A DNA stretch of 64,000 bases from Azolla caroliniana (GCA_043228905.1 JBHGNT010000009.1:17174001-17238000); one strand, 5' to 3'; numbered from the stretch's first letter, positions 2,094 to 42,176 are shown. Made by a program: numbers and translations. The notes: generated from the letters alone by a model not told the origin.

Positions 2094-2152
<59 letters not shown>

Positions 2153-3830: not shown

Positions 3831-5133
3831 TATCGTGAAAGTTTGAAAAATCACATATGAGTGTGTAAGTATGATTAATACAAACGATATATGTGCGTTG
3901 AAGTAACATTATGTGAACATAAATTTTATTGTCATGCAATTATATTGCTCATAGAGTCCCACTACTATAATCTATATGAGCTAGAGTATGTATGTAATGA
4001 TTTTTTTTCTCGGGTTCGCACATAGGATTTAAGGTGAAAAAAACCAATAAGGGAAAAATGCTTTCATTTGGCAAGGTACTTGACATTATGAAATGGTCTA
4101 AAAGATAGGAAATAAATGATTGATTGTAGCTCTTTAGTAATGCTATGAAGTATGTGCGTTGATCAAGGATAGATTAAATAAGGCACCGAGGATGAACTGG
4201 CAAGATGCCAAAATGTTAAAATTGGAATATTACATTGCAAATGTTAGCCCCTAATACAAGGTAAAAAGGCTAGAATTTGTTCATGACATGGTGTGCGCAA
4301 TGGAGAAAAAAGCCTAAAAACTAAGGTATATCATAAGGTAAGGTATAGTCAAAGAAATAACATAAGAACACAATAGTGGATGAGAATCAAAGAATTAAAT
4401 CAAGATAGCTCAATTGGCAAGAATTAATTGTTAGAAAACAAGGTGTAGGGATTGAATCTCGATAGAGGTGATGAAGGAAGGTGACCTATAGTGCACAAAG
4501 ATATAAGGATGAAGTATGGAGTATAAACAAAACGGGGAATCTACGCTTTATGAAAATCAAGTATCAAGGTCAAGTGTTACAAAAGGAAAGTTATTTTGGT
4601 AAGGGTCCTCTTGAAATTTATAAAAGGAGAATGAGAGCTCATTGCCACGGAAAGGCATCTTGATGGAGACGCCCAAGCTTTGTTAACGAACGAATTATTG
4701 CAGCACAATGAATCAAGAGGCATGTGAGAGGCCAATGATGACAAACACAATGTGGTCATCAATTGTCGTGCCAAAACTTGAGGATCTCCTACCTACACTC
4801 TTTTAATTCCTTGATCTCCATCATCTTATCCTTTCATACCCCATACTACGAACCCCACTTAACAAGGTTGAGTATTTAAACCTTCATTGTATCTTGTAGC
4901 AAGCTCCTAGTATTATCATGGTTTATTGTATATTTCCTATAATATGTTATGCATCTTTGGAAAAGATTTTCACTATGTCTTATGGAGAATCTTCATGAAA
5001 CTTTCGAGTTGAGATTTTGAGTCATTGGGCATACATCTACAAGTGAATTCGTGTAATTCACAATCTAGATGACATTCATTTCCGTACACTTCATCATGCG
5101 AACATTTAGGAAATTGTTGTGGAAATCACGACA
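3831..5133 (+). mobile_element. LTR-like element with TGTCG-type termini and internal tRNA-like segment (family X)
   Basis: 5' TATCGTGA / 3' TCACGACA; A-box TAGCTCAATTGG (4406-4417) and B-box-like GGATTGAATCTC (~4449-4460); no TSD (GTATT/TAGCC). Confidence 0.5.
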
Positions 5134-5344
5134 TAGCCTTTGGGTTGATAATCAACGTCCCCTAGAAGAAATTACATGCAAAAGAAAAATCAAACCCATG
5201 ACATCAAGTTCTAAGAAAACTGGTGTCCAATTAAGTAGGCATGCTCATATGTTGCCAAGCAAAATATCGTTGAATCGGGCATTAGGACATCAAGTTAGTG
5301 AAAGTCCCATCCACAAGAAAAGAGGAAACAAGGGACTTATCATA

Positions 5345-5507
5345 TTTCCCCTAAAATACCATTCTCCCGCCACACTTTCCCTAAATTCCCTTCTCCCAAC
5401 ACGCTTTCTCGAAATACCCTTCTCCCATCACACTTTCTCAAAATAACCTTCTCCATCACACTTTCTCGAAATACACTTCTCCCAATACACTTTCTCGAAA
5501 TACCCTT
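5345..5507. repeat. Minisatellite, ~28-bp unit, ~6 copies
   Basis: Repeated CACTTTCTCGAAATACCCTTCTCCCA(T/A)CA. Confidence 0.9.
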
Positions 5508-5577
5508 CTTGTTGCAAACTAAGACCATCGGTGCGGAAATACAGATCAACACTATAGGATGAAGGACAACAAGTTCT

Positions 5578-6372
5578 TGTAAGTAAGACCATCAGTCTAA
5601 ACAGATGAGGCAACATCCACAACTAAAATAGAATTTGAGACAGACAGACAGACAAAGATAGGCACATAGTGTAACTGTATTATTCAAACTCAAAGTTACA
5701 AAAGAATGGCGGCAACCAACACCATCTATAAACTAGTTACAAACTTAGTTATATACTAACTGACTTAGGGCAACCACCCTTTGATCATATTACAAATATG
5801 TCCTTGTCTAGTTTGTCCAAATGGCACAATGTGAATACGACCATTATACACCCATATTCGACAATCCCCCATAATGGGCGTACACAACAAAAGAATTTGT
5901 AATATAATACAAAACAATACAGATTATATAAAACGATGTTTGAACAAGTCGATTGTATTGCTGAATCGGCAAAGGCCGAACAAAAAATCGAGTCGGCTAG
6001 TCTAAAACACTAAAGTCGGATTGGTTGTGTCGAATGCCGAATTCCGAAACGTCGAAATGCCGAAGCCAATTGTCTGAAGTCACCTCTGTGTTCGACTAAA
6101 TCAAACCGATTTTTTCTTAAGCCCATTTGGTGCCTTAGTGACCGGAATCGATCACCCGAAAGACACTTGGTCATCACGTCTGCAACGTTGTCGGCCGAAG
6201 AGATCTTCTCGAGGCCAAGCTTACTTGTAATTATGCAATCCCGAACAAATTGATATCAAACATCGATATGCTTCATGGAATTATGATGCACCGAGTTCTT
6301 TGACAAGGCGACAACACCTTGATTGTCGCTATATACAACTGGAGTTGAATTAGTGTTGGTTTGCTGAAACGT
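5578..6372 (-). mobile_element. Ty1/copia 3' remnant (RNase H end, PPT, 3' LTR)
   Basis: Minus strand reads YSDNQGVVALSKNSVHHNSMKHIDV*YQFV (copia RNase H); PPT ATGGGGGAT abuts LTR start TGTCGAAT at 5863; left LTR boundary approximate. Confidence 0.75.
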
Positions 6373-6499
6373 TGTCATAGTGTATTTCATACACTACGTG
6401 AAAAATGTACGGAGTACCCGATTGAATAAGTATGAAGAAAAAGAAGAGAATATTAAAATGTAGGTTACATGCACAAGACAAGATTCAAACGTTGTACCT
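6373..6499 (+). mobile_element. 5' fragment of family X element, interrupted by copia LTR
   Basis: TGTCATAGTGTATTTCATACACTACGTGAAAAATGTA aligns with the start of 33532-34291, including the terminal hairpin and the B-box region CAAGATTCAAAC. Confidence 0.7.
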
Positions 6500-6793
6500 T
6501 GTTGAGAATCAAGCTCAACCTAGCCTAGTGTGTGAACACACCCTTGAGAGTTTATGAACACTCAAAGGTCAAAAGTCACACCACTACTCTTTACACATTA
6601 ACTGTGTCATAGAATCATATTATATGACACATAACTAATGAGTTTCCACATTCCCCATGACTCATGAGCTTTGGTAGTTAATGAAGAGAGAGAGTGACTA
6701 TATAAAACACTCTCCTCCTACTTTGTAATACATCGGTTAATCTCCTTTGTAATATACAATCTTCTTGAGTATTTTCTATTATCGATCTTGTGT

Positions 6794-6860
<67 letters not shown>

Positions 6861-8521
6861 TAACATACATCTCTAACCTATTCCGATGCACAAGAATCAC
6901 CATCGATTCTTTACATGGTATCAAAGTGGTTTGGTAGCTCGATCTAGCCCATCCGCGTGTGTTGTGCTCTACGCCGACGTTCAAGAAGAACCGGCACATC
7001 GCTATCGTAATGCGGCGACATAGTTCGTATTCAAGAGAGAAGAAGAAGGAAGACATCTACATAGAACACCATGAATACTCAAATGGGGAGTGCTCTCCCT
7101 AGCGAGAAGTTGGACCGAAACAACTTCGCATCTTGGGAGTACAAGATGCACCAATACCTTGTCGGTCAAGGTTATTGGAGCTTCATTAAAGGAGCACAAG
7201 AAAATCGACCTGACCCAAAGGATGCCAACTACTCAACATGGGAGCCAGTGGCGAGTCGAGTAATGTATTGCTTGGCGACATGTGTTCATGACCACATGCT
7301 CAACTGCATTCGAGAAGCCACGATGCCAAAGGAAGCATGGGAGAATCTAAGGAAGATATTTGCCGCCAATACGACGACATGAAAGCTTCAACTCCGCCAA
7401 GAGTTGAACAACATCCAACAATGGGACTCGTCCATCACAATCTACACCTTGAAGATCAAGGATCTTTGTGATTCACTCGGCTCAATAAGCGTTAATGTGG
7501 AGGATGATGAGATGGTGCAAATATGCCTCAGTGGCCTTGCAGCACGGTCTGGCACAATGAGAACTGTCGTCCTACCAAGGGAGAATCCTCCCTCTTTCTT
7601 CGATCTTCAATCCATGTTGTTGGTTGAAGAAAACCATGTTCGAACGAGGAGCAACACCTCGAAAGGCCACATGCTCTACACACATTCGAACGGAGGAAGA
7701 GGACGCGGCCAAGCAAGAGGCCGATTTGGCCAAGGACGAGGCGGACGAGGTTCCACTTCCGACAACAACTCCCAATTTTGACAACAAGACGAAATCCATC
7801 GAGGAACCTAAGAAGGGGAGCTTCCATTCCGGTTCAACTCGACAAAACTCGATCGAATGCGGATATTGCGGCAAAATTGGTCACCACGAAGAAGAGTGCC
7901 GAAAGAAGATGCGTGAGTCGGCTTCCACTAGCCGACAACTCAACAAGTACGCCACCAACTCTAACTATGAAGATCATGGCAGAATGTTCGTAATGAGACA
8001 TAGAGCAAATTCTATGTCGGCCTCTAATTCGACTAATGCCTCCAATCTGGAAGATGTATGGTTCGTCGACACTAGTGCTTCGAACCATATGACGTCCCAT
8101 CAAGAATGGTTCCGAGACTTCCGAGAGCTGGATCAATCCGGTTATGTCGAGACCAGAGACGACACCACTCATCTGATTCGGCATGTAGGCAATGTCCCAT
8201 TCGGGAAAGAAGGTGAACAAACTTGCATCAAAAATGTCTTACATGTACCCACCATAACAAAGAATTTGGTCTTGGTCGGCCAAATTGTGGAGCAAGGGAT
8301 GCAAGTTCAATTCAACCAAGGTGATTGCTTTATCGAGAAAGAAGGCCGACTAATTGCTCGTGGTCAAAGGGAAGGCCGAATGTTTATCCTCAAAGCGAAC
8401 GAGGTAAAATCATCCATGTTTGCAAAGGGCCTCAAACCCGACACCGACATAGAGCTATGGCATAAAAGAATCGGCCATATCAATCTCAACAAACTCAAAG
8501 TGATGCAATCGAAAGCAGTCG
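6500..8521 (+). mobile_element. Ty1/copia element A, 5' part (LTR 6500-6915, PBS-Met, degenerate gag-protease-GAG-pre-integrase), truncated by element C
   Basis: TGTTGAG...TTTACA LTR; PBS TGGTATCAAAG at 6916; gag UBN2-type (NFASWEYKM..YL) from 7071, CGYCGKIGHHEEEC zinc knuckle, WFVDTSASNHM protease, LWHKRIGH. Confidence 0.92.
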
Positions 8522-8825
8522 TGTTAAGCGAGCAAGCTCAACCGGATCCGGATCCGGATCGGTATCCAGAATGGAGAACCGAATCAGTGTCCGGATGATA
8601 TCCGGAACTAGGAGCTGGATCGGAATCAAACCGGCAAGCCGTTAGAGGCCTACTGATCTAGCCTAGTACGTAGGCATATTTTTGGGAGTCAGTGACAGTC
8701 GCTCGTATGAGCATTGAAGTACCTGTCAGTACTTTTGTAAGTCCTTTATGGACTTGTATAAAAGTGCTCTCTGAGCACATTCTATGTACACAGAGTTTTA
8801 GAGTATTATTTTGAATAGAGTTTAT

Positions 8826-8882
<57 letters not shown>

Positions 8883-9644
8883 GTCTCTCCTGCGTACGCG
8901 TACTCTATGTGTGTGTTAAGTTTTCTTCTCATCTTCTGTTGCTATCCGATAGAGCCGGTTTGTCGAACGCTTCCACACGCTAACATTCACATGGTATCAG
9001 AGCACGAGGGTTGAGAACCTCTGCAGCCGACAGACGCTTTCAAAGTCAAACCCTAATAACTGGTAACAACAGAAAGAGAAAGGTATGGACAGAGGTATGG
9101 CGAGTTCACTTCCAACAGAGAAGCTCGGTCAGAGCAACTATGCGTCCTAGTCATATAAAATGCACCACTACTTGCCGGGGCATGATTATTGGAGTTATGT
9201 GGAAGGAACCAACAAGGTAGCACCGGAGCTGGCACACAAAGACTTCCTGGCATGGGAGCAAGGAGTGAGCCGAGTATTGTACTATCTTGCGTCCGGTGTG
9301 CACGATCAAATGCTCAACTACATCAAAGATGCAAAAAAGCCAAAGGAGGCCTAGGAAAAGCTTCAAAAGATTTTTGCCGCTAGTACCATGGCACGAAAGT
9401 TGCAGCTTCGACAAGAGCTCAACAATATCCGACAGAGGGATATGTCTGTGACTGACTACACCACCAAGATAAAGGAGATTTGCAACGCGCTCGGGTCCGT
9501 CAACGTGACGGTGGACGAATACGAGATGGTTAAAATCTGCCTCGGTGGTCTAGCACAACGGTACAAGCCAATCCGAACAATGATCTGCACACGGGAGAAG
9601 CCACCGTCCTTCTTCGACTTACAATCCATGTTGATGGTCGAAGA

Positions 9645-10100
9645 TGTTGAGAATCAAGCTCAACACAGCACAACGTGTGAACACACCTTTTGAGAATCTA
9701 TGATTACTCAAAGGTCAAGAGTCACGCCACTACTCTCTACACATTAACTATGTGTCATAGAATCATATTCTATGACACATAACTAATGAGTTTCATATTC
9801 CCCATGACTATGAGTCTTCACATTCCCCAAGAGAGAGATTGGTTGTTGTAAGTTAATGAAGAGAGAGGATGACTCTATATAAAGCACCCTCCTCATACTT
9901 CATACTAAGTCGGTTGTGACTCCTTGTAATGCTACATTTTCATTTATCATATTCTCCTTGTTAATATACATCTCCTTCTTCTTGAGTATTTCATTTTGTC
10001 TCTTATCCATCTTGTGTTTCTCTCCTCTCCTCTTTCCTCTCACACATACAGATAACACACATCTCTTCCGCTACACAAGAATCACCATCGATTCTTTACA
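9645..10100 (+). mobile_element. Solo LTR (family A) inserted in gag of element C
   Basis: TGTTGAGAATCAAGC...GATTCTTTACA with 5-bp TSD GAAGA/GAAGA; similar to LTR 6500-6915. Confidence 0.95.
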
Positions 10101-11225
10101 GAAGAAAACCACGTGAGTGGATCGAGGACCACTCAATCGGACAACCGGATGTTGTACAAGGAGGTGGATCGACCCTATGGGCGTGGAGGACGAGGTGGGT
10201 CGGCACGTAATGGAGGCGGCCGGCAAGAGCAGAACCAAAGGCACAGAGACAGTGCCGACAGTAGTTCCGGACCCTCCACAAGCAGGGGCAGTCAAGTCGG
10301 AGCCGGAAACTGATAGTTGAAAACCGAAACGGAATGCTAGTACTGTGGCAAGAAAGCCACACAGAGAGCGAGTGCTGGAAGAAGTGTGGCGATTCGGATA
10401 AATCCGGATCTGGCAAGGTCGGACAAGGGAACCGGCAAAGTTCGCAGTACGCAGAAGGATCGGAAGGATCCGGAATTGGGAAGACCGGTAAAGGGCTAGC
10501 CTTCGTGATGAAGCACAAGGCTAACTCGATGAAGAAGAATACTTCCAAATCGGAGGAAGTATGGTACGTTGATTCCAGAGCGTCCAACCACACGACAAGC
10601 CATGAAGAGTGGTTCTCTTTTTTGGAGAAACCGGAACAACCAGGGATTGTCGAAACTGGAGACGACACCCCTCACCCAATTGTGCATGTCGGAGAAGTCC
10701 CTTTAAGCCATGTCGGACAAAAGGGGAAGTTGATGAACGTACTACACATTCTGACTATCACAAAGAACCTGATGTCGGTTGGACAAATCGTCGACCAGGG
10801 GATGTAGGTGTGGTTTATGCACCTCAGGTCCTTCATCGAGGAAGAAGGCCAGATAATTGCACAAGGGCGCAGAGAAGGGAGGATGTTCATCCTCAACACT
10901 AATGACATCGGCACTGCCATGTTTGCCAAAGGACAGAAGATTGAATCCGATATCGATCTCTGGCATAAGCGGATCGGCCACGTCAACTACCAGAGGCTTC
11001 AAGATCTGCAATCGAAACAAGTTGTGTTCAGATTGCCGAAGTTTAGTGGCTGGAAGGCCCAAACATGTGAAGCCTGCCAACTCAGGAAGCAACACTGGCT
11101 TCCATTCCCCACCGAACGAAACCGGAGCCATAACAAGACGATCTAATCCATTCGAATGTATAGGGACCTACACAGAACGTTAGTCTTGGCGGGAGTCGGT
11201 ATTTCATCTCCTTCATTGACGACTA

Positions 11226-11877
11226 CAGCCGGCACACGTGGATATATCTCATCGAGAAGAAAAGCGAAGTCTTCGACTATTTCCAGAACCTTCAAAGGCT
11301 AGTCAAAAAGGAAACGAAGAGGAAGATCAAGTGCCTGTGGTCGGATGGCGGAAGAGAATACTTTTTTGGCCAATTCAACAGTTATCTGCAGTAGAACAGA
11401 AATCGGAGAGAATTCAGTTGTCGATACACACCGGAACAAAACGGTGTGGCCGAAAGAAAGAACCGGTCGATTGTCGATGCAGCAAGGGCAATGTTGGGGG
11501 AGAAGAGCATGCCCCAATTCTACTAGGCTTAGGCGGTTCGAGCGGCCGTCTCAGCCAGCACACGTGGATCTATCTCATCAAGAAGAAAAGCGAAGTCTTC
11601 GACTGATTCCAGAACCTTCAAAGCCTAGTCGAAAGGGAAACGGAGAGGAAGATCAAGTGCCTGCGGTCGGATGGCCGAAAAGAATACTTTTCCGGCCAAT
11701 TCAACAGTTATCTGCAGCAGAACGGAATTCGAAGAGAATTCAGTTGCCGATACACACTGAAACAAAACAGTGTGGCCGAAAGAAAGAACCGGTCGATTGT
11801 CGATGCGGCAAGGGCAATGCTGGGGGAGAAGAGCATGCCCCAATTCTACTAGGTTGAGGCAGTCCGGACGGCCGTCT
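11226..11877 (+). repeat. Tandem duplication (~326 bp) of the integrase core of element C
   Basis: CAGCC(G/A)GCACACGTGGAT...GCCGTCT at 11226-11551 repeated at 11552-11877. Confidence 0.92.
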
Positions 11878-14800
11878 ACATCCAAAACCGGATCGGAGAC
11901 AAGGTGTCACAACATGAGCTATATTTCGGGCGGAAGCCGAATTTGATGCACCTTCGGATATTCGATAGCATAGCATATGTGCATGTACCGGATGAGAAGC
12001 GGAAGAAGCTAGATTTGAAGTCAGAGAAATGCGTCCTAGTCGGTTACTCGCATGAGTAGAAGGGGTATAAGTCTTAAAACCCCCAGACTAAACATGTACG
12101 AATAAGTCGAGATGTCGAGTTTGATGAGTCGGCATCATGGTACTCCCTACCGACTCTAACACCCAACGAATGAGGCTAGTGAGCCCGAGGAGGTCTAGGA
12201 AGAAGATGAAGACTTTGGCACTCTAGAAGAGAGTCCGATCTCATTACGGCTAAGTGGGCCGAATGAGCGGTTGAGTCGGGATGACCAGTCGGATGAAGAA
12301 CCGACGAGTAATGGAGACTCTACCGTGCTCTCCCGTGCAAGGAACCGAGGAGACAGTTCACGCGCAAAGAGAAGGGGAAGAAGAAGATGTTGGAATATGA
12401 TACCGGTAGTGAAGGGTCAAATCAGAGTGAATCTGACCCCGGAAAGGGAGAAGGTAGGTCTTTAGAAAGGAAGTTTGAACTGGCCAAGAAGGGCCTCAAA
12501 CCGGGTAACAAAAAGTTACCCCAGTGAACCCTTCATGAGGTACGGGTACAATGAGTACAAGGTGCATCACTATGCGTACATGACTAAGGTGGTGGAAGAG
12601 AGTGAGCCGGAGAGCTACGCAGAAGCAGCGAAAGACGCAAATTGGCGTGCTGCTATGGAGGAAGAAATGTGGGCACTAGATGCCAACGACACATGGGACC
12701 TCGTTGACCCACCCCGACAGTGCAATCCGATCGGTTGCAAGTGGGTGTACAAGGTAAAGTACAACGTTGACAATTCGGTCAACCAGTACAAAGCCCGGTT
12801 AGTGGCGAAGGCATACGCACAAACCCACGAAATCGACTACGACGAGAGCTTCGCTCTAGTAGCGAAGATGACGGCAGTTCGTGTGGTACTAGTTGTTGTT
12901 GCGGCAAGGGGAGGGCATCTTCACCAAATGGATGTGAAGAATGCATTTCTTCACGATGATCTTGATGAACAGGTCTATATGATCCAACCCCCCGGTTTCC
13001 AATCGGAGATGAACAAGTCGACAGTGTGCCGACTCAAAAAGTCGCTTTACGGTCTGAAACAAGCCCCCCGAGCTTGGAATGCGAAGATCACGCACCAGTT
13101 GCGTAAGATGGGGTTTGTGGCCTCTAAGTCTAACTCTTCATTGTTCATCCGGAACGGTCCGGACGGTCCGGTTTGCATTTTGCTTTATGTAGATGATTTA
13201 GTCATCACCGGACCCGAACTCGATGAAACCTGCAAAGTGAAGTCCCAACTGTCGAACGCATTTGAAATGAAGGACCTAGGGGACCTTCATTATTTTCTTG
13301 GGATCGAGGTGATCCGAACCCCTGACATCATATTGCTCTCACAACGCCATTATGTGTTGAATATGTTTCACAAGTTCGGCATGACGGAATGCCAACCGAT
13401 CTCTACACCCCTGGACCAAAACCTAAAGCACACGTCCCCACTCCGGTCCGGCCTGCGATGAGAAACGGTTCCAACAAATTGTCAAAAGCCTTATATACTT
13501 GAAGATCACCCGACCCGACATCAATTATCCGGTCGGAGTGATCAACTAGTTCATGCAAAAGTCATCCGTCCAGCATCTTCAATGCGCACACCGGATACTC
13601 CGGTATGTTAGCGGCACGAAGGACCGAGGACTGTTATACTGACACGGTATAGCTAAAGAGCTTGGCGGATATACCGATGCCGACTGGGCTGGTGATGCAT
13701 CGGATCGTTGATCCACCTCCGATTACATGTTTTCTCTTGGTAGTGCGGTTGTTGCATGGAGCAGCAAAAAGCAGCCAACATTGGCTCCGTCGAGCACTGA
13801 GGCTAAATACCGGGGTGCTACCATTTCCACCTGTGAAGCCATCTGGCTTCGGCGACTTTTGCGTGACCTCCCGATCGAGGTGCCGACCCCGATCCCGATC
13901 CACTATGACAACATGAGCAGCATACAGCTCGCCAAGAACCCAGTGTTCCATACTCAAACAAAGCACATAGAAGTGCATTATCACTTTGTTCATGAGCGGG
14001 TACTGAGCGGTGAGGTTGAACTTCGGTATGTTCACACGGATCGGTAGTTGCCGACATCTTCACCAAGCCGCTCGGATCGGACAAGTTGCAACATTTTTTG
14101 GAGATGCTCGGCATTCAGCATCTCGATGTGCTGCACTTGAGGGGGAGAACAAGAACGGGAACGAATGGCACCGGACAAGGAGCCGGAGAGGAAGAAAGAA
14201 CCAAGGAGGGAGATAAGCAGAAAAAGGAAGCCGAGCCGACCACAGGAGTCGGCACATCCGAACAAGTCGGAGCAAGCGGCAGCGGCGGTAGAGTCAAGAA
14301 GGACAGAGCCGACCAGAAGAAGAAGGCCAAGACCAGGTCGTGGTCTGATGTGGTGAAGGGTCTGAAAACCGGAGACGAGTTGGAGAACACCAACTCAGAC
14401 AAGAGCCGGAACGAATCGGAAGCGACCGATTTGGACAAGAGCTAGAACGAATCGGAGACAGTTGATTCGGTTCAACAGATGGATTCGGAAGAGCCAGATC
14501 TTCTTAAGGCCAAGTGGACACGGACGCAACAGAAGTCGACGCCAACACGGAGGAGCTAACGGGTCGAGAAGCGCTAGAGTCGTAGCAGCGAGGGAGCTAA
14601 AATGGGCCTGTTGAGCAGACAAGTCGACCGAGGAGATGGAGGTACGCTGAACCGGAAGGGCCGCGGCAAACGAGACCGGACCGGATGAGGAGCGCGAGCA
14701 AGGTAGAATGACACCAAAAGGAGCCGGATGGAAGGACCGGCTACTGCAGACACTGACACCACGATCCGACCTCAAGTTGAGCTTGAGGGGGAGTGTTGAG

Positions 14801-15739
14801 CGAGCAAGCTCAACCGGATCCGGATCGGCTGAATAAGCCAGAGCCGGATCGGTATGCGGAACGGAGAACCAAATCGGTGTCCGGATGATATTCGGAACCA
14901 AGAGCCGGATCAAAGAGCCGGATCGGAATGAAACCGGCAAGCTGTTAGAGGCCTATGGATCCAGCCTAGTACGTATGCATATTTTTGGGAGTCAGTGACA
15001 ATTAGTACAACAATATTACATTTCACATTATACATGTGAAAGTGAGTAGTGACTCTCGATGTTCAAGAACTTTACCAATGAACGTTGCAATCAAGAGTGC
15101 ACATTCTGGTTGTGAGAGAAATTCGTGCAAGGATTGGGCTTGGTTGAAAATGTGCGCAATGAGAACCTAGTGGAGAGTAAATGTCACTTCCCACATACTC
15201 AACACATAAGGTAATTCTTGAGATGACTTATTGGACAGTCATGATAATTCAAGCATCATACTCAAATACCCACCAAGAAGGGTAAGCACATACATGTGTG
15301 CATTATTTTCACATAGAGAGTTTTTATTACAAAAAGTTGTCGTGTCTTTAGTCAATTCAATTGCCCCAAACTTTAGTAGATATTGAGTGGAGACCTTATA
15401 TACCCTCTCTTAGTAATATGAACGATTGTACTGAGTTTGCATAGATAAGCCAGTTTGTACCTCGTTTTATGTGTGTAGGAAAATCACATAGAGAGGTTCA
15501 ACCAAATCACACGACATTACAAACCAGGCATGATTGAGACAAGCGTGATTGCTTTGAGTCTCTCATGTTAGAATATCAAGTTGGGGTCTAGTTCATAACA
15601 CTCCATACAAAATCTGGGATAAACTTCCTTTACATAAAGGAAGGATTTCTTACCAACTTGAGAGGAGAGGAGTGAAGTGGAACCCATTGGCCAACTCTTC
15701 TCTTTGAACCAAGCCAAGAGTTTCCATAATGGGTTTGAA

Positions 15740-16007
15740 TCATAGTATGAACCATATGTGCATTCGCATTCACAAATTTTTCAATCATTCGCGTAAGAAA
15801 AACACCCTCAAAGAATGATAAATACCATATTTTGGATTAACTATTTATTATGAGGTAAATAAGCCTAAAAAATGGAAAAAAAACATTAAATAAATGGGAA
15901 AAAAACAAAAAAAAAAAACACAAGAATGTTTGAATAACATTCGCATTCGTTTTCCAACGTAGGAAAACGAATGTTATGCTAGATGAACATGAATTTTACG
16001 TACTATG
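15740..16007. mobile_element. Possible non-autonomous hAT-like MITE
   Basis: CATAGTA...TACTATG inverted ends; 12-bp subterminal hairpin CATTCGTTTTCC/GGAAAACGAATG (15944-15973); no clean 8-bp TSD. Confidence 0.35.
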
Positions 16008-19670: not shown

Positions 19671-19710
<40 letters not shown>

Positions 19711-25515: not shown

Positions 25516-26114
25516 TGTCATGATGTGGCATGTGCGAATGGAATAAAACAAAAAAAAGGCCTGTTGCAGAAAGGCTTGGAATTTGATCGAACAAGTAAGA
25601 GAAAATATGACAACAAAGCATAGCTTAATAGTCATTCTTAACAAAAGGGCCAAGGGTTCAAAACCTGCTCAAGGTGACCAAAGGAAAACTGAGCTACAAT
25701 GCATAAGTGACAATAAGGAAGCATGCAATAAATGTGAATAAGTTGACATACATTTTGTTGAAGCAAAAGGATAACGATAAGTGCATGCTCAAAAAGAAAA
25801 GGCATTGGTGCATTCTAAGAAGAAGATGCTATTTTTATCTGATAACAGAGTTCGTGGAAGTTATTAAATGAGCAACTTATAATCCACACACTTATTTTGT
25901 GATTGTTTTAAGATTTCTTTACGATTGAAAAATATATGTTCCAATTGTTTACTCATGGCTTAAAATTTAGATAAAATGTGGAACCTTCACAAAAGGAATT
26001 GACCCAACACCCTACGTTATTCAGCACCTTACTTGAAAATTAATTCTATCAAATTACAAGACCCAATGAATATGACATTACATGAGCTTTTGGAACTCCA
26101 ACAATATCATGACA
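25516..26114 (+). mobile_element. LTR-like element with tRNA-like segment (family X)
   Basis: TGTCATGAT...ATCATGACA perfect 9-bp inverted ends; A-box TAGCTTAATAG 25621-31, B-box GGTTCAAAACC 25655-65; flanks CATAG/TTCTT (no TSD). Confidence 0.55.
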
Positions 26115-26759
26115 TTCTTGAATCCTATGTTGCCAATATGGAAACACATGTTGAGATAAAGGATGGCCAAACTGGTGAACTTTCCTTTGTTTTAAAGGCA
26201 TTAGAAGGGAAAAGAAAAAAATAACCGAGGAAGCAATTTGCACTTGGTTGGGTCGTTGGGAGTCTCATTTTGAGCCTCACCCTAAGCCTGATAGTACGAA
26301 AATTGTACAGGTTGCACATGAGTTAGGTGGAAAGATGTCACCTTGAGGCACAATCTTTGTACTACAAAGAAATGCCCCATACTTGGGATACCTTCATGGA
26401 CATCCTTAAATTGTTTCTACATTCACCTTCTCAACTTGATGCCACAAAAATGCAATGACTCTCTAATAGCTCATTTCATTCTCTTGAGGATTACATTCAT
26501 CATAGTTAAATGCAAACTCAAAAACCACGAATTGAGGGAAAAAAATGGTTTAACGTTGTTGAGATTGTAACTCTATACATGCACACTTCAAAAAAGGATT
26601 GTAATAAACTTGAGTTACTAGAACCAGGGCCAACATCTTTCATTGGGGTAAGCACTAACTGCAATGAGGAATCTGGTCAAAACTGTAAGCGATCATATGC
26701 ATATTAGTGCATACAAACAATGACTTTGTTCATTCCTTGGTTTTGTCTACAAAAATCTC

Positions 26760-28719: not shown

Positions 28720-29614
28720 CTATTCTTCTCTTTTAGGTCGATTTCGAGTTCCGACCACAGCAACATTATCTGCAGGTTCACTTTCCTCTGTTGAATCCTC
28801 ATCATTTCTCTTGCCATCAGGAAGAAGTCTCTGGGGATTAAATCGCTTCTCCCATTCCTCTGCCTGGAACAACATAAAGGACGAAGAGACGAAATCAAAT
28901 GCCTTTTTTTACAATAACCGCTAAAAAAAGGAAACGGAATTTCAAGGTTTTTGGATGCTCAGGTATAAAAGAAACAAAGCAATGCAACGGTTTCTCAAGG
29001 TAAAGATGAATGATGACTTTTTCCTTATTTTCTCCTTCAACTTTACGGTTTAAGATAAGGAAACGGAATATCTGTACTAAAAGAAGAAGCAAATGTCTTA
29101 CCACTGCCAAAACCTCTGATGGTAAAGATTGAGTAGGAAGAGAATGAGAAGACGATAAAGTTCATACCTCTGCTAAAGATTCTGCTTCAAGCTTCCGCAG
29201 GAGGACCTTTCCTGTAATGGCGGCTCCTCCAGCAAGAAGTAAAGGAACAACGATGGAAGCGATAATGGCGTTTCGAGAAGCAGGTTTTAATGGAGGCTTC
29301 TGCTTTTTGGCGATAGCATTTATCTCCAAGAAGAAGTGCTTCTTCGCATGTTGATTCTCTTTCTCTGGGGAATAATCAATCGAAGAAGAAGAAGAAGGGA
29401 GCTTGCATCCACTGAGGAGAAGATGGAGTGATGGCGAGAGAAGAGATGCGGCGGATGAGGGAGAAGTGGGGCTTCTTCTGCAGAGCAGGGGTGGGAGATG
29501 GCTAGATGATGGAGTTGAGGTCTTTCTGCTGCTGCTACTGCTGCTGCAGGGGAGAGGAGATCGCCATGGCTGAGGAGAGAAGCTTATCGTCTGCATCATC
29601 GCCTTGGACTCCAT
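28720..29614 (-). CDS. Unknown ~196-aa protein: Ser-rich transit-peptide-like N-terminus, one transmembrane helix, acidic tail; 2 coding exons (29614-29168, 28863-28720)
   Basis: ATG at 29614 (MESKAMM..), S/P-rich N-terminus, hydrophobic IIASIVVPLLLAGGAAITG, GT donor after 29168, CAG acceptor before 28863, in-frame AEEWEKRF...PKREE* ending TAG at 28720. Confidence 0.7.
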
Positions 29615-30190
29615 GGCTGGAAACAAAAACAGGAACGGATGGCTCTCGATTTTGCAGTACATACATGCATAACATAGATATTGAGAGCTTTTTGCGTCCC
29701 GCCGGATTCGAACTCGAGACCGCATGAATTACACATTTATTTTTGGCCCCTCATTTATATACATACATACTTTGGTCTCCACAAGTACATGTATATATAT
29801 GTACCAATTAATAATTAGTCTACCGCCAATTAATTAGTAATGTCGATAATTAGCATAAATATATCCCAATTAATAACTCCTCCACTGCAATTAGTGCCTC
29901 GCGTGTTCTGCTCTCGGCTACCTCCTCTGTACTCTCGATCTCATCTCGTGCATCATCCATGTTGTGGTGTCCTTGTTCTGTCCCAAGCCCAAATCCCAAT
30001 CCTAAAGAAGGCGCCACCCTGGGTTGTCCCAACGGCCAATGTTTGGCCTATATGAGGTGGATCATTCCTTGTTTGTGTTCATTCTCAATTTCACCGTTTT
30101 GGCTCCAAGGAGCATGGAGTTCTCTCTCTTCCTTAGTTGTGTCCCGACTCAATCCCAACTTCAGGTTTTGGTTTGTCCCAAATTGGGGAT

Positions 30191-31258
30191 TGTTGTAAGC
30201 TACGGAATATAATATATGTACATGTTTTGTGTCGCAACCTTTTGTTTTCGCTCACTTCTTATTGTGTTTTAAGCCACACTTCCCTTACTCCAATATTGGT
30301 CCCATAAGTCTTAGTTGGATTGTTGTAGGCGTGGCTCGATGGTGGAGTGTCGATCATTCAAAGCGATGGGTTCGAATCCCTCCTTTTGTGAAAAAATCGA
30401 CATGGTCCCTTTGTCACTTAAGTTCACACCGGAAATATGGTTTATGCTTCATCTCAAAAGGAGAACATAATAAGTAAACTCAAACAAGATAAATTAAAAT
30501 ATTTATAAGCATTTAAAAATCCCATAGTTCACAGTACATGTTTTGGGGAAATGAATCGAGATTGTCCAACATTTGAACCCTTTGGCATAGGATAAGAAAC
30601 GATTTTAATAAGAGAATATTTTGAGGAATATCCTTGATTTGGAGCATCAAGTATATGCTTCCTCGTATTGGTCGTCATATGCCTCCTATGTGACCTCCTC
30701 ATATTGGTTGTCATAGACCTCCCGTGTGCCTGCCCTCCTCGTATTGGTCGTCATAAGCATCCCGCATGCCCTCCTCGTGTTGGTCGTCATAACCCTCCCA
30801 CGTGCTCTCTTGATCCGTTACCTCATGTTTTTGTTTGTTGTCAAATCCTATGTATTCAAATCCCAAAACTTGTGAGCATGACAATGGTCTCTCTTGCTCA
30901 TTCTATATCTTTAAGGAGCTCTCTTGCTAAATAAAAATAGTATTCTCTCTTTTAAACACGCACCATTACTTTTAAGTTTGAGCATGCACTTTGTCCTTAT
31001 CTCTGGGCACTTGGGTTTGGCAAAATGTATGTTGATCGACCATTCACATTTACTACACACTTTCTTAACATCACCCATACGTTGTATCTCATAATTTCCC
31101 CTCAATCGCTTTTACTAGGTTTTGAACCCTTGTCCTTTTGTTACGACTTGTTAAACATTCTTCTTTACACTTTTTTCCCATTGTCACTTTGTCTAGAATC
31201 TTACCTATACCAATAAAACTTGACGTTTTTTTCTCTTCTGACATAACACGTTACAACA
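30191..31258 (+). mobile_element. Possible LTR-like element with tRNA-like segment and ~33-bp minisatellite
   Basis: TGTTGTAA...TTACAACA ends (both flanked by AT); A-box TGGCTCGATGG 30332-42, B-box GGTTCGAATCC 30369-79; repeats CCTCGTATTGGTCGTCATA 30660-30790; AATAAA at ~31212. Confidence 0.4.
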
Positions 31259-33531
31259 ATGTTCACTAAATACTAATGGATATACACTATACTATTATTT
31301 TTGAGCTCGGGTATTCACAATTTTAGAGATGTAACAACCATCTCCAAAATATCTTCCTTAAAAGCTCTCTCTTATAAATGCAAACATGAAACTAACATCC
31401 CAAAATTTGCAAACAAAATGCGAGTCATGCATGTTTTTGACTCATAGTTTTGCTTTTATATTTTGACAATAGCTTATTGTCATAGACTTGTATTTTGAAA
31501 ATATTTATAAGAAAAATGACCAAGAGATTACTCTCTATAGTGTAATTAAAGTAAGAATTCGATTAGTACTCTTCACGTCCAAATGTCAATATATTGGAGA
31601 AATATAAAAAGTTTTGACATCCCAAAATAAATAAGGGTTAATCATTTGCATGTCACCATTGCATTACATTGCATGTAAGTAAGTTATGGTGAACACGCAC
31701 CTTACCTAAACACAATCTCATTTATCAACATTCTCCCCCTTCCACCAAATAATCAATAAGTAAGAAAACCCACAGCCAAAATTCCTTAGAAAATGTTGGT
31801 ACCAACTACATCGCCCTCCTCCTCGAAGAACAAGAGAGTGACTAATATGCTTCAAATGTAGGTTGCACAATACTCGATGAAACTAAAAACCAATTGGATA
31901 ATTTATTAAGATTATCATAAGTGACCCCGATCACATGGTTGATTAATCTATCTTGTTAGGTGCATTAGGCAAAAAAAATATATCCCTTCAAAATGGTTAA
32001 GTTGATATATACTCCAAATATATTGCATATTCTTGTTTACATGTTTGATCTTAATTTTCATACAATTGGGAGCTTCATCTTTGATCAAGCATATATTTGG
32101 GAGATGTTTAAATGAGATACATTACTAGTTTCTCAAAGTTATACTGTTAAGAATCAAGCTCAACTTGGTCTAGTGTGTGAACTCACCTTGAGAGTGAATA
32201 GACACTCCAACGGTCAAGAGTCACCATTATGCCACCTCTTTGTATTCTAGCATTTAGTATGAGTCATAGAATCATATTCTATGACACATAACTTATGAGC
32301 TTTCACATTCCCCATGCTCCATGAGTTTTGTAGTTAATGAAGAGAGAGGGTGACTATATAAATCACCCTCCTCCCACCTTGTATATGTCGAGTCTTTCTC
32401 CTTTGTTAATATACTTTACCTTGCGTATTCTCTATGTTTTACTCCTTATCTCTCTCACTCTCTCTCTCTCTCTCATACACACACATAACTCACATCTCTT
32501 CCGCTTCAGAAGAATCATATCTGATTCTTTACATGGTATCAGAGCGGTTTGGTAGCTCCATCTAGCCCATCTGCGTTGACGTTCAAGAAGAACCGGCTCA
32601 TCGCTATCGTAGCTATCGTAGCTTTGCTACATAGCTCGCATTCGAAGAGAGAAGAAGAAGAAGAAGAAGAAGAATTGACATAATGAATACTCAAATGGGG
32701 AGCGCTCTCCCTACCGAGAAGTTGGATCGAAACAACTTCGCATATTGGGAGTACAAGATGCACCAATACCTTGTTGGACAAGGCTATTGGAGCTACATCA
32801 AAGGGGAGCACGAAGACCGACCAACCGAAGCGGCTCCCGGATACGCGACATGGGAGCAAGTCGCAAGCCCCGTGATGTATTGATTGGCGACATGTGTTGA
32901 CGATCACATGCTCGGCTACATTCGCGAAGCCAAGACGCCGAAGGAGGCATGGGAAAATCTACGAAAGATTTTCGCAGTGAACACAACCGCAAGAAGGCTT
33001 CAACTCCGCCAAGAGTTGAACAACATTCAACAAACGGACATGTCCATCATGACATACACCTCGAAGATCAAGGAGCTTTGCAATTCGCTTGGCTCGATAA
33101 GCGTAAATATCAATGATGATGAGATGGTGCAAATATGCCTCAACGGCCTCGCACCACGGTTCGGCGCGATGCGAACAACCATTCTAGCACGGGAGAAATC
33201 TCCCTCCTTCTTCGAGCTCCAATCAATGCTATTGGTCGAAGAAAACCACGTGCGTACAAGGAGCAATGAGTTGGAAGGCCGCATGCTCTACACGCACTCA
33301 AACGGAGGAAGAGGACGCAGATGAGCGAGAGGCCGATTCGGCCAAGGACAAGGCGGACGAGGTTCGACCTACGACAACAACTCCCAATTTCGGCCCCAAA
33401 ACGGAAGCCAACGAGGAACCTTCGCAAGAAGGGGGAGCTTCCACTCCAGCCCGAACCGTCAAAACACAACCAAATGCGGATATTGCGGAAAGTTCAGCCA
33501 CCACGAAGAAGAGTGCCGAAAGAAGATGTGA

Positions 33532-34291
33532 TGTCGTAGTGTGAATCACACACTACGTGAAATATGTAAAATACTATATCCAATTCAAAGTACGTATAAT
33601 AAAAAAATATTTATTATGTACATAGGGCAAGATTCAAACCCTATACCTGCACGTAGACAAACCCCAACTTTACCATTGTACTAACTTATCCTTAATATTT
33701 AATACCTATAAGGCCTTTATTTACGCCTACCTTTATTAAAAAGGTAAGTCATGCATTTTTACAGTGCGTGAATACTTTATTTATAAGAAAAATGTAAACC
33801 AATAAAATATTACTCGTGCACATTAGCGAGCATGAGCACTATATTTAGGAAATAAAAGCATAGTGTAAAAAGCAACTCATGCACATTTAGTGTGCATTAA
33901 CACTTTAGAAAAAGCATAGAGTCTATCTATAGAAAAAGCATGGATTGTTAAGACTCTCTCATCACTATATAAGGATGAGGAGCACAATGTAATAGGTGTG
34001 AAATATTTGGGAAATTGGATATATTTCCTAAAACACCAATTAATAAAATATATTCGTGGGATTCACGAAGTTTTATATAATCTACTCTTCCAATCTATGC
34101 TAAATTGTTATCAGGATTCTAAATATTAATAAATCTAATTATATATATACTTGTGGGATTCACAAGTTCTTTTATCTCTTTCTTATAATCTATTCATAAC
34201 TAGTCTTGTCTCAAATTCTTCCTCCTCCTAGTCCAAAACCCAGTGGTTCCCACCCGACTCACGCAATGATCTGGTGCCGAAAGGCACGACA
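33532..34291 (+). mobile_element. Family X LTR-like insertion in gag of element B
   Basis: TGTCGTAG...CACGACA; interrupts the KKM(R)ESA sequence after the zinc knuckle; TATA CTATATAAG ~33965; minus-strand tRNA-like segment 33624-33686; terminal hairpins. Confidence 0.85.
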
Positions 34292-36522
34292 ACGCGAATC
34301 GGCTTCCACAAGCCGACAACTCACGAATTACGCGCACAATTCTGACTACGAAGAGTATAGTGGAATGTACGGGTACAACTCCAACTACGAAGATCGTGGC
34401 GGAATGTACGCACACAACTCCGACCGTGGCGGAATGTTCATGATGAAACATAGAGCAAACTCTATGTCGGCCTCTACCTCAACTAGTGCCCTCAATTCGG
34501 AGGACGTATGGTTTGTGGACTCCAGAGCCTCAAACCATATGATATCTCATAAAGAATGGTTTCTCGAACTTCGAGAGCCGAAGCGACCCGGTTATGTCGA
34601 AACCGGAGATGACACTATGCACCCGATTCGGCACATCGGCAATGTTCCGTTCGGCGAAAGAGGTAAGCAAATATACATTAAAAATGTCTTCATGTTCCCA
34701 CCATCACAAAGAATTTGGTCTCAATTAGCCAAATGGTTGAGCAAGGGATGCAAGTACGATTCGACCAAGAAGGGTGCTTCATCGAAAAAGAAGGCCGAAT
34801 CATCGCGCACGGAAGAAGAGAGAGCCAGATGTTCATTCTCGATTCACACGAGATGAAATCTGCCATGTTCGCAAAAAGCACGAAAGTCGACTCCGACATA
34901 GAGCTATCGCACAAGCGAATCAGCCACATCAATCTCAACAAACTCAAAGCAATGAAATCGAAAGGAGTTGTCATCGGACTCCCGACATTCAAAGAGAAAG
35001 AGATTGATGCGAAGTGTGCCAATTCGGCAAGCAACACCAACACCCATTCCCGAATGAGTGGAACGTGAGCAAAGGTCTCAACGTAGTCCATTCTGACGTA
35101 TGGGGACCGACGCAGACGACTACATTCGGCGGATGCCAATATTACGTGCTCTTCATCAACGACTTCTCCATGCACACTTGGATCTATCAGATGCGGCAAA
35201 AGAGCGAAGTGTTCGGACACTTCCAAAAATTTAAGAATGCAGTTGAGAAAGCCACGGGTCGTCATGTACAATGCCTTCAATCGGATGGCGGCAAGGAGTA
35301 CTTCTCGGACGATTTCACAGCGTATCTCCGAAAGGAAGGAATTTGGCGAGAATTCACTTGCTGACACACTCCGCAACAAAATGGAGTAGCCGAGCACAAA
35401 AATCGGCACATCCTTGAAGTAGCGCGGACCATTATAAACGAGAAGCATATGCCCAAGTCATATATGGGTTGAAACTGCAAATATGGCCGTCTACCTAATG
35501 AACCGGTGCACAACATCTGAAGTGCATGAGGTCATTCCGCACGAAAAATACTTCAGAAAGAAGCCGAACTTATCACACACCCGAATATTCGGCGCGATAG
35601 CGTACGTGCACATCCCTGACGAGAAGCGTCAAAAGCTCGACCCGAAGTCGGAGAAATGTATCCTCGTAGGATACTCACTAGAGCAAAAGGGGGACAAGTG
35701 CTACAACCCCTCAACTCGAAAATCTCGAGTAAGTCGAGACGTCGTTTTTGACGAGTCCGCATCCTGGTACGCACCAGAGACAACTTCGACTCTGACTCTG
35801 CTCGACCCGGAATCCGCCGAACAAGAGGATGAAGATCGCCTTACGCGCATGTTCGAAGAAAGTCCGATCACGACCCAATTGAGCGGACCACAAGAGCCTT
35901 TGAGTGATCAAAGCACATCACGGCCTAGCCCGAAGATGGACAAAGGCAAGGCGAAAATGGCGGAATACGAAGACGATCGCTTCGACGACGATGAGTCGAC
36001 TCCCTCACTCGACAATGAGTTCGACGGCTTCGATGTACCAATCGGAGCTAAGAAAGCCCTCATCTCTGCAAATGAAAAGCTTCGTCGCTCCACCCGTGAC
36101 AAGAATTCAGTCAACCGATTCGACTACAACGACTACATGGCATATCACTATGCCTTTATGATGAAGGTGGCAACAATACACGAGCCAGAAACATTTTCCC
36201 ATGCAACCAAGGATCCATGATGGATCGAAGCCATGAACGAGGAGATGCAGGCCCTACGCAAGAACGAGACATGGGATCTCGTTCCCACCTCACCATAACA
36301 AAAGGCGATCGGATGCAGATGGATTTACAAAGTGAAGTACAATGCTGACGGTTCCGTCAACTGCTACAAAGCGCGACTCGTAGCGAAAGGCTACGCCCAA
36401 ACGCACGCAGTTGACTACGAGGAGACCTTTGCCCCGATGGCAAAGATGACGACGGTACAGACCGTAATTGTGCTTGCCACGGTGAAAGGGTGGCACCTCC
36501 ATCAAATAGACGTCAAGAACAA

Positions 36523-37883
36523 TATCGCGAAGATTTTTGACAATGGTGTGAAAATCGCATAAAACATACGAAATCGAGTATGAATCATATAAAACAATAA
36601 TAGTGAAAATACTATTTTAAATATTTGTAATATCTTAGTACAAAAAGATGGAGGTCTGCAAGAGCTTTCAAATGCACCTTACTACATAAGAAACGGACAT
36701 CTATGTCTCAAGTCATGTGGGTAGGAAGTTTGCAAAGGAAAAGAGAAAAATAAAATTGTGAAATATACCACATAGATAGGAAAAAGTTTAGGCCCAGCTA
36801 TATAAGCAGATTGAGATCCATCATAATTTATCTATGTGTTAAGAGCACATAAGAATGGTTGGACTTGAGCCACTTTTGTCTAGATGGACATATGTGGCTA
36901 AGTCGCCGGATGTGGCTAAGTGCCCAAACCGGTTGGTGAAGAAAAACTCAAACCGGCTGACGACAGAACCAGAAAACCAGATGGAGCCGGCAATCCGTGA
37001 CCGGATGCATCCGGCAACTGGTGATTGGACGGATCCGGCAACCGGTGACGGAATCGGTGATCGACAGTAACCGGTGGTAACCGACGACATCCGGAGCCAG
37101 CAAGACCGACATCCGACGATGGAGCCGGTGTGTCGGTGAGTCGGTGAACACCGACAACGGAGCCGGTGACCGGCAAGCGACTCGGGATGCGGACTAGGCC
37201 GAACCAAACGGATGCAAATCGGATGGATCGGTCGGGTCGGTTGATCGCGGTGCATGGTGTCTTAAAGATGTTTGGTCCAAAAGCCTAATAGTATTTTGTG
37301 CATAAAAGAAAAAGATGTAATCAAGACTTGAACTTAACACCTCCAAGATAGGAAGCAATAGGCTTGCCATTAAGCCAAACCATTTCTTTAGAGATTATAT
37401 TTTTATCATTATGACTTTACATGTAAATTCTCATACATGAGAGCTAAAATAAGTGGCATGGTTATCATGCACCACATGTAATACATGAGCGCCAAATGGC
37501 AAACATGCATTTTATGCATGTCTTGTACCCTCAAATGCATGAGGGCATCTATAAAAGAGGGGAGGAAAAAAAGAAAAGGTAATGTAAATTTTTTATCAAG
37601 AGCTTTGTACTTTATATCAAAATTAATATTAAGAATAAAATTCATTATCCAATTGATATATTAATCTTGTTCTTCAAATCTAAAGTTAAGAGTTCAATCT
37701 TACTGTCTCTCTCCATTTCAATCTCTCTCAATCTAAAGTCAAGCGTTTAATCTCAATTTCTCTCTCTCTCAATCTATCTTAAATACTTTCTCGCTAAAGC
37801 TTGTGCGTACATCAAGTCCTTCTGGTCCAGAACCCCGGCGGTTCCACCTCACGATCCGCACATAGTGACGGATCTTCACGACA
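36523..37883 (+). mobile_element. Family X LTR-like insertion in RT of element B
   Basis: TATCGCGAAGAT...ATCTTCACGACA inverted ends; splits DVKN|AFLQG; GC-rich CCGG repeat tract 36900-37250; minus-strand tRNA-like segment 37319-37381; TATA CTATAAAAG ~37550. Confidence 0.85.

Positions 37884-42117: not shown

Positions 42118-42176
<59 letters not shown>

What the first reader, a model, noticed from the sequence alone, without database searches (positions are those of the whole stretch)
3831..37883. Dispersed group of TG..CA elements that all embed a tRNA-like Pol III cassette
Seen: 3831-5133, 6373-6499 (truncated), 25516-26114, 33532-34291, 36523-37883 and possibly 30191-31258 are largely dissimilar internally. 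The first five share T(G/A)TCRYR...AYGACA-type ends, none shows a TSD, and each holds a 45-65-nt A-box/B-box segment (either strand; only the B-box survives in the truncated copy). 3831-5133 and 36523-37883 both end CACGACA-TA. Known: Cassandra TRIMs carry a 5S Pol III promoter in their LTRs. Inference: a tRNA-promoter analogue of Cassandra, or solo LTRs of an uncharacterised lineage; I do not recognise a described family.
Basis: partly seen in the sequence, partly recalled or inferred. Interest (0 to 1): 0.75.

Follow-up and report, generated by a model that had tools for sequence, protein, structure and literature searches.

The report
Autonomous plant retrotransposons carrying tRNA promoters
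These repeats are mostly leftover end-pieces of a plant jumping-gene lineage whose protein-coding members carry the two promoter boxes of a tRNA gene, in either direction, just upstream of their own promoter, where they likely serve as a docking site for the tRNA-gene machinery rather than as the promoter that copies the element.

Summary
Partly confirmed, reinterpreted. 33532-34291 and 36523-37883 are solo LTRs, and 6373-6499 a cut LTR start, of Ty3/gypsy elements matching the described Phygy lineage: tRNA-Trp primer site, polypurine tract, 4-bp NCGN target duplication, no chromodomain. 'No TSD' holds only for these window copies. The ends given for 3831-5133, 25516-26114 and 30191-31258 are partly wrong; they are decayed pieces of an older, probably related family.

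The tRNA-like cassette is real and integral: in 23 of 24 and 28 of 28 aligned LTRs; 30 of 30 sampled intact cassettes lie inside such LTRs. Unlike Helenus/Cassandra it occurs in gag-pol elements, lies upstream of the TATA box, is antisense in most families and inverted to sense in one, and keeps A/B boxes and spacing while tRNA stems decay. It is the best-conserved internal block between LTR families whose ORF1 is 44% identical. Likely an orientation-independent TFIIIC/Pol III docking site; function untested, no RNA data. Against: the commonest clade lacks it, and its CpG is not protected. The scan noted Helenus-type TRIMs in other genomes, not this.

The parts
33532..34291 (+). Solo LTR, family A, Phygy-type Ty3/gypsy; inserted in the gag region of a Copia element
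   Evidence: 46 matches from 40 of 4460 candidates scored, many in pairs about 3 kb apart with PBS and PPT; 4 extra bases against the empty homologous site, GTGA/ACGC
33631..33683 (-). tRNA-like A-box/B-box cassette, antisense in the LTR, about 280 nt upstream of the TATA motif at 33965; B-box carries a C-to-T change; T5 run 23 nt downstream
36523..37883 (+). Solo LTR, family B, Phygy-type; inserted in the Copia RT frame
   Evidence: 77 matches from 40 of 4672 candidates; relatives with PBS after a TAATTAAG spacer, PPT and 4-bp TSD
37325..37377 (-). tRNA-like A-box/B-box cassette, antisense, about 170 nt upstream of the TATA motif at 37549; T5 run 11 nt downstream; younger family-B cassettes are closest to tRNA-Arg among the tRNAs harvested
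6373..6499 (+). 5' fragment of a family-A-type LTR, preceded by ACGT (NCGN), cut inside the cassette (B-box left, about 6481-6499 on the - strand) by a Copia LTR that starts at 6500
   Evidence: 77% identity over 128 nt to LTR L207; remainder not found in the window
4279..5510 (+). Old decayed repeat (family C), likely a Phygy-type LTR; real start near 4279, right end at or beyond 5510, not resolved
   Evidence: 10 alignments from 9 of 24 homologous loci start at 4262-4292 with unrelated left flanks; L257 aligns to 5510
4406..4458 (+). tRNA-like cassette of family C, same strand as the repeat's start; present in decayed form in the 14 homologues that span it
25516..26274 (+). Old family-C repeat; 25516 is a real terminus, 26114 is not; shortened cassette-like segment 25621-25665
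30780..31258 (-). Old family-C repeat in reverse, starting at 31258; homology fades near 30780 (a second block 30513-30657)
30332..30379 (+). Second A/B-box segment with an intact B-box; unassigned, covered by none of 56 homologous loci
32145..39654 (+). Host Ty1/copia element (LTRs 32145-32534 and 39262-39654, 95.7% identical, 5-bp TSD TATAC) into which both solo LTRs are nested

Best explanation
The intact pieces are solo LTRs of Phygy-type Ty3/gypsy retrotransposons, and several families of this lineage, protein-coding ones included, keep a tRNA-derived A-box/B-box cassette in the LTR upstream of the TATA box that likely works as an orientation-independent docking site for TFIIIC and the Pol III machinery, predicted to help keep the adjacent Pol II promoter accessible. 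Shown: LTR identity, tRNA-Trp primer site, PPT, 4-bp NCGN duplication, gag-pol and gag-only forms, fixation of the cassette, both orientations, retention of boxes and spacing with loss of tRNA stems. Inferred: capture of a tRNA or SINE head early in the lineage with one inversion and at least one loss (or exchange between LTRs); purifying selection on the boxes; TFIIIC binding; any effect on chromatin or on the Pol II promoter. The element would be copied in the ordinary way from a Pol II transcript primed by host tRNA-Trp; gag-only copies would borrow pol in trans; solo LTRs arise by LTR-LTR recombination (established knowledge). My odds: identity about 0.9, selection on the boxes about 0.7, this particular function about 0.45.
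For: PBS is the complement of the 3' end of this genome's tRNA-Trp genes (8 of 8 loci called Trp by ARAGORN); 5071 exact LTR-end+PBS matches, 0 in the reversed control. Phygy is tabulated as 4-bp NCGN TSD, tRNA-Trp PBS 81%; host 4-mers here have CG or its decay TG/CA at positions 2-3 in 39 of 39 (A) and 65 of 68 (B). Cassette in 23 of 24 A and 28 of 28 B LTRs; 1154 exact intact matches, control 0; the first 30 all lie antisense in A or B LTRs, both termini found for 27. Among elements picked by PBS, not by cassette, 4 of 6 with paired LTRs and pol carry it (L189, L191, L197, L201; not L193, L205). Between A and B LTRs the cassette is the strongest alignable block (81-88% over 48 nt for the best pairs) while ORF1 is about 44% identical. 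Across 18 antisense representatives mean pairwise identity is 0.70 in the A-box, 0.86 in the B-box, 0.89-1.0 in the GAGGT motif (not part of the scoring profile) and 0.36-0.37 in the flanks; A-to-B distance is 43 in 19 of 23 and 44 in 4 of 23 where 40-49 was allowed; acceptor-stem pairing is no better than slid controls. A homologous cassette lies in sense in gag-pol elements L452 and L455, about 85 nt before the TATA motif and followed by a T-run (score 58.5 against a shuffle maximum of 32.5). In metagenome contigs 12 of 42 relatives with at least 300 nt of LTR side carry one, on several deep RT branches: 17 hits in 58 kb of LTR side against 2 in 219 kb of pol. TFIIIC-only (ETC) sites and tDNA insulators are known (PMC11346459, passages).
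Against: No binding, chromatin or RNA data. The cassette is dispensable: only about 4 of the first 30 PBS loci have it, and 5 of 5 LTRs tested from the abundant cassette-less families, some with 100% identical LTRs, score within shuffles; 30 of 42 metagenome relatives and 16 of 30 loci with the TGTCGTGATGTGG start had none above threshold (many are partial). The B-box CpG is not protected in genomic copies: kept in 2 of 23 (family A; median of 20 CpG sites 0.795) and 14 of 28 (family B; median of 45 sites 0.70), and 15 of 23 window-like A copies share a C-to-T change in the B-box, which suggests that a gag-only subfamily spread with a probably weak box (that this change impairs TFIIIC binding is recalled). 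Representatives were chosen by box score or pattern, so box conservation is partly built in. Phygy membership was not tested against reference Phygy proteins. Family C pieces gave no BLAST hit to young TGTCGTGATGTGG LTRs; their link to Phygy rests on the terminal 15-20 nt and the cassette.
Confidence: 0.5

Rival explanations
1. The cassette is a small Pol III gene: it makes a 75-110 nt RNA whose sequence or act of transcription matters (decoy, small-RNA source, or regulator of the LTR), somewhat like the Pol III miRNA cluster of bovine leukemia virus.
For: Complete A and B boxes at tRNA spacing; a T4 run within 50 nt of the B-box in 14 of 18 antisense representatives; AT-rich upstream flank.
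Against: The spacer sequence and tRNA stems are not conserved, folds differ between families; the youngest, commonest family-B cassette has no T4 for 169 nt; T-runs are common in this AT-rich DNA.
Confidence: 0.25
2. The cassette is a neutral passenger: a tRNA or SINE head landed in an LTR, was copied to both LTRs and is carried along or swapped between families, with no function.
For: Absent from the most abundant clade; CpG decay; this genome has an abundant tRNA-SINE, one copy of which sits in a Copia LTR at 44306-44515; recent LTR exchange could explain A-B similarity; Kojima proposes SINE insertion as the origin of such LTRs.
Against: Boxes, GAGGT motif and 43-nt spacing outlast the spacer and flanks across RT branches about 30% apart; no SINE tail or free copy among 30 sampled; the window's SINE has a different head.
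Confidence: 0.18
3. Cassandra/Helenus mode: Pol III starting in the 5' LTR makes the RNA that is reverse-transcribed.
For: Sense cassettes exist in one group and in the L191 LTR.
Against: Most cassettes are antisense; elements are 3-9 kb, many with gag-pol; the sense cassette is followed by a T5 run before the TATA motif; Kojima argues that Pol III limits length to about 1.3 kb.
Confidence: 0.03
4. The cassette attracts integration (Ty3-like tethering to TFIIIB/TFIIIC) or shields the LTR from further insertions.
For: Ty3 targets Pol III start sites (search listing); Phygy-type elements are often nested in the loci fetched.
Against: Insertion sites sampled show only the NCGN preference and are not clustered at cassettes by inspection; not tested formally.
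Confidence: 0.04

Closest known systems
Phygy (non-chromovirus Ty3/gypsy; Neumann et al. 2019, PMC6317226; I saw passages and the Phygy row of supplementary file 3)
   Same: 4-bp NCGN TSD, tRNA-Trp PBS, no chromodomain, coding sequence filling most of the interior, 7-9 kb autonomous size.
   Different: Defined there from Physcomitrella patens only; no tRNA-like LTR cassette or gag-only derivatives appear in the passages I saw.
Helenus / TRIMp3 (Kojima 2024, PMC10886601; I read parts 1-4 of 6 of the main text, abstract to end of discussion, and figure legends; supplements not seen)
   Same: tRNA-derived A/B boxes fixed in both LTRs, no functional tRNA, solo LTRs, PBS and PPT.
   Different: Helenus are non-coding TRIMs of 311-1263 bp; the only plant family has a 120-bp LTR and 5-bp TSD. 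Here LTRs are 0.7-1.7 kb, elements 3-9 kb with gag or gag-pol, 4-bp TSD, cassette mostly antisense. The paper notes that 'not a few LTRs' in Repbase have tRNA-like parts but analysed only TRIMs under 1000 bp.
Cassandra (5S rRNA promoter in TRIM LTRs; as summarised in PMC10886601, original not read)
   Same: Pol III-type promoter inside plant LTRs.
   Different: 5S type-1 promoter that starts the element's RNA; non-coding, under 1 kb.
TR-GAG elements (passages in PMC13570524)
   Same: The 3-4.5 kb forms keep only a gag-like ORF, 49-69% identical to the autonomous ORF1 start.
   Different: No Pol III cassette mentioned in those passages.
tDNA insulators, ETC sites and B2 SINE boundaries (PMC11346459 passages; PMC8136502 abstract)
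   Same: TFIIIC-binding boxes acting on neighbouring chromatin; proposed working model.
   Different: Shown in yeast and mammals, not in a retrotransposon LTR or in this plant; B2 boundaries limited the spread of open chromatin, the opposite direction of effect.

Membership tests
Phygy | 4-bp TSD with NCGN preference | tested here: met
   perfect in young full-length copies; the two window copies are degenerate
Phygy | PBS complementary to tRNA-Trp | tested here: met
Phygy | Ty3/gypsy order RT-RH-INT without chromodomain | tested here: met
   Precomputed Pfam of the listed pol homologues shows RVT_1, RNase H and integrase families and no chromodomain accession; motifs. The C-terminus of the own pol was not scanned separately.
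Phygy | Size 7656-9968 bp, no extra ORF | tested here: inconclusive
   Autonomous copies 7.3-9.3 kb: overlapping, some slightly shorter
Phygy | RT/RH/INT phylogeny with REXdb Phygy references | not testable with these tools
   No REXdb reference at hand; nearest named homologues are liverwort (Riccia) proteins at 55-72% identity
Helenus (TRIMp3) | tRNA-derived A/B boxes in the LTR | tested here: met
Helenus (TRIMp3) | TRIM: short (up to about 1.3 kb) and non-coding | tested here: not met
   All 32 paired elements measured have interiors of 0.7-5.9 kb; 14 of 32 have pol, most others a gag-like ORF
Helenus (TRIMp3) | Cassette placed to drive the element's RNA by Pol III | tested here: not met
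   Antisense in families A, B and L191 U3; sense form followed by a T-run before the TATA motif. Orientation is not stated in the Helenus text.
Cassandra | 5S rRNA-derived sequence in the LTR | tested here: not met
   No Rfam 5S match in the window; cassette matches tRNA
tRNA-SINE insertion | Free copies with tail and own TSD; patchy presence within a family | tested here: not met
   0 of 30 sampled intact cassettes free (first 30 of 1154, one contig); fixed in families
Functional tRNA gene | Cloverleaf recognised by ARAGORN/Rfam | tested here: not met
   one spurious long-intron call
TFIIIC-bound chromatin element | TFIIIC occupancy and effect on a neighbouring promoter | not testable with these tools
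   needs ChIP/CUT&Tag and reporter assays

The most novel reading that the evidence does not exclude
An autonomous plant retrotransposon lineage has domesticated a tRNA-gene promoter as a standing, orientation-independent part of its LTR: it recruits TFIIIC/Pol III beside its Pol II promoter to resist silencing, and has spread more than a thousand intact Pol III docking sites through the genome. Helenus/Cassandra-type TRIMs could then arise by deletion from such autonomous LTRs rather than by SINE insertion into a TRIM.
Probability: 0.3. Interest if true: 0.78.

Novelty: new variant of a known kind. Interest (0 to 1): 0.52.

Why it matters
Pol III promoters in LTRs were described for tiny non-coding elements, where they are thought to make the element's RNA; the Helenus paper argues that autonomous partners must rely on Pol II. 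Here gag-pol elements keep such boxes over long divergence, in both orientations, where they cannot make the genomic RNA. That points to a second use, and sister clades with and without the cassette give a natural test of whether TFIIIC binding helps a retrotransposon escape silencing in plants. In practice it also matters for tRNA/SINE annotation in seed-free plant genomes.

Tried and rejected
RNA: no RNA holder listed; the three contig runs laid are probably DNA and cannot show strand or start. Viral contig scan found no relative. Pfam gave no family for the gag-only ORFs; gag identity rests on similarity to the autonomous ORF1. TSD-less element classes (Helitron/Crypton/DIRS-like; recalled) were dropped once paired LTRs, PBS, PPT and TSDs appeared. 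Origin of the cassette from the primer tRNA-Trp by read-through: considered; family B is closer to tRNA-Arg(TCT) (score 50.5 against 38.5 for Trp), but the 54 tRNA sequences harvested lack several isotypes, so the source is open. Self-priming by the cassette: its 3' end does not match the PBS. Methylation protection of the B-box: tested, not supported. Script errors: the cassette pattern and the PBS pattern were too strict and were redone; the family-B TSD tally counted both strands and was redone (where row L232 is probably still mis-sorted); the first tree contains one unrelated long row, L208. Literature: searches listed no paper on tRNA-like cassettes in Phygy or autonomous plant Gypsy LTRs; I saw only listings for most, subscription journals and Repbase entries are not covered, and the Helenus supplements were not read.
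Full report
Setting. The window is repeat-rich plant DNA from a 523-Mb assembly. The host was not determined; the nearest named homologues of the retrotransposon pol are liverwort proteins. 32145-39654 is a Copia element with 95.7% identical LTRs and a 5-bp TSD; two of the reported pieces are nested in it.

What the intact pieces are. 33532-34291 (family A) and 36523-37883 (family B) each have many genomic relatives (only 40 candidates scored each). These occur in direct pairs; the upstream copy is followed after 3-9 nt by TGGTGAACCCGACGTGA and the downstream copy is preceded by a G-rich tract. That motif is the complement of the 3' end of this genome's tRNA-Trp genes and occurs 5071 times after an LTR-like end, 0 times in the reversed control. 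Solo copies have 4-bp TSDs: exact in 7 of 10 (A) and 9 of 22 (B), within one mismatch in 9 of 10 and 16 of 22, never exact at 5 bp; positions 2-3 are CG or its decay product in 39 of 39 and 65 of 68 host 4-mers. Neumann et al. list Phygy as 4 bp NCGN, tRNA-Trp 81%, 7.7-10 kb. Of 32 paired elements measured, 14 have pol and the rest are 0.7-3.5 kb inside, mostly with a gag-like ORF. The window's own two copies have poor TSDs (GTGA/ACGC and ACAA/TAGC) but 4 extra bases against the empty site. For 36523 the extra bases could also be read as 2-nt unprocessed ends (AA and TA, the latter matching the family's spacer) at a blunt insertion; one case cannot decide. 6373-6499 is the first 127 nt of a family-A-type LTR, cut inside the cassette by a Copia LTR.

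The old pieces. Homologues (59-77% identity) run through 5133 and 26114 and one through 3831; the cassette-bearing repeat starts near 4279 with a terminus like that at 25516 and, reversed, 31258. Young LTRs with the same first 15-17 nt are Phygy-type (549 exact matches; PBS, PPT and NCGN seen among the first 30), but the old pieces gave no BLAST hit to them, so the link is likely, not shown. 4015-4290 is a different high-copy repeat. The segment at 30332-30379 is unassigned.

The cassette. It is present in 23 of 24 family-A and 28 of 28 family-B LTRs aligned (one duplicate row dropped). A pattern for the intact form has 1154 exact matches; the first 30 all lie antisense inside A or B LTRs. A profile from the genome's tRNAs separates cassettes from shuffles in A, B and a third family (L191: two antisense, one sense) and finds none in five LTRs of the other families. 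On the RT-RH tree, L191, A, and a clade of B plus the cassette-less family are well supported, so either the cassette is ancestral and was lost, or it moved between LTRs. Between A and B it is the strongest LTR alignment although ORF1 is about 44% identical. Across 18 antisense representatives, boxes and a GAGGT motif are conserved, flanks and anticodon-arm spacer are not, spacing is 43-44 in all 23, and the acceptor stem is lost (representatives were picked by box score). In a sister group the homologous cassette is inverted to sense in gag-pol elements, about 85 nt before the TATA motif and followed by a T-run, while other LTRs with the same start carry it antisense (8 sense, 6 antisense, 16 none of 30). 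In metagenome contigs, 12 of 42 relatives with enough LTR sequence carry a cassette, on several deep branches; most of these contigs come from one series of records, may stand for few host species and can be chimeric.

How it most likely works. Antisense orientation, position upstream of the TATA motif, element length and coding capacity exclude the Cassandra mode. Retention of DNA boxes without tRNA structure, in both orientations, fits a TFIIIC/Pol III binding site acting in cis on the LTR's Pol II promoter (inferred; precedent in PMC11346459). A short Pol III RNA is the main rival, a passenger the next. Results against function: the commonest clade lacks the cassette (about 26 of the first 30 PBS loci), the B-box CpG decays at least as fast as other CpGs, and 15 of 23 window-like A copies share a B-box change. 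No RNA evidence was obtainable.

Comparison and novelty. The lineage is known (Phygy by structural features; phylogeny with references not testable here). tRNA-derived LTR cassettes are known from Helenus TRIMs, whose defining size and non-coding state are not met. I found no description of such cassettes in autonomous plant Gypsy LTRs in the searches; Kojima's remark that other Repbase LTRs hold tRNA-like parts means it may exist unanalysed in Repbase. Earlier notes of this scan report Helenus-type TRIMs and one Gypsy with an antisense tRNA relic in other genomes; look-ups by sequence found nothing. Verdict: new variant of a known kind, interest 0.52.

Noticed in passing
window 44306-44515 (+); related tandem pieces at 2021-2339 (-): A roughly 210-bp tRNA-headed SINE with A/GA-rich tail, often in (GA)n tracts, here inside a Copia LTR; 2063 candidates, 40 scored. 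Its head differs from the LTR cassette.
   Followed up: partly
window 48512-48589 (-): Rfam snoR35 C/D-box snoRNA, 44.6 bits, above the gathering score.
   Followed up: no
family A and B 5' LTRs, e.g. L043, L161, L163: The spacer between LTR end and PBS is 3-9 nt and family-specific, longer than the usual 2 nt (recalled); how the cDNA end is trimmed is unclear. The window copy at 36523 may keep 2-nt unprocessed ends.
   Followed up: partly
L191 (G000:C1:906000-915900): Young intact element (LTRs 99.9% identical, two long ORFs) with three tRNA-like cassettes per LTR: two antisense before and one sense after the TATA-like motif.
   Followed up: partly
L193, L205 LTRs: The cassette-less, most abundant young clade has GC- and CpG-rich LTRs, unlike the AT-rich cassette-bearing ones.
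   Followed up: no
G000:C8:17796786-17823371, C16:4989495-5105657, C5:10105608-10112201: Tandem arrays and clusters of tRNA-Trp genes, the primer of this abundant lineage (63 matches in all); clusters of Lys, Ile and Val genes were also seen.
   Followed up: no
L208 (G000:C1:11345000-11354900): Two further tRNA-like A/B-box segments of another type (about 2440 + and on the - strand), probably a second SINE family.
   Followed up: no
window 6500-15000 and 42100-44791: Several nested, related Copia elements; one has a 326-bp tandem duplication at 11226-11877.
   Followed up: no
window 29713 (-) and 46332 (-): Isolated B-box matches outside the reported elements.
   Followed up: no
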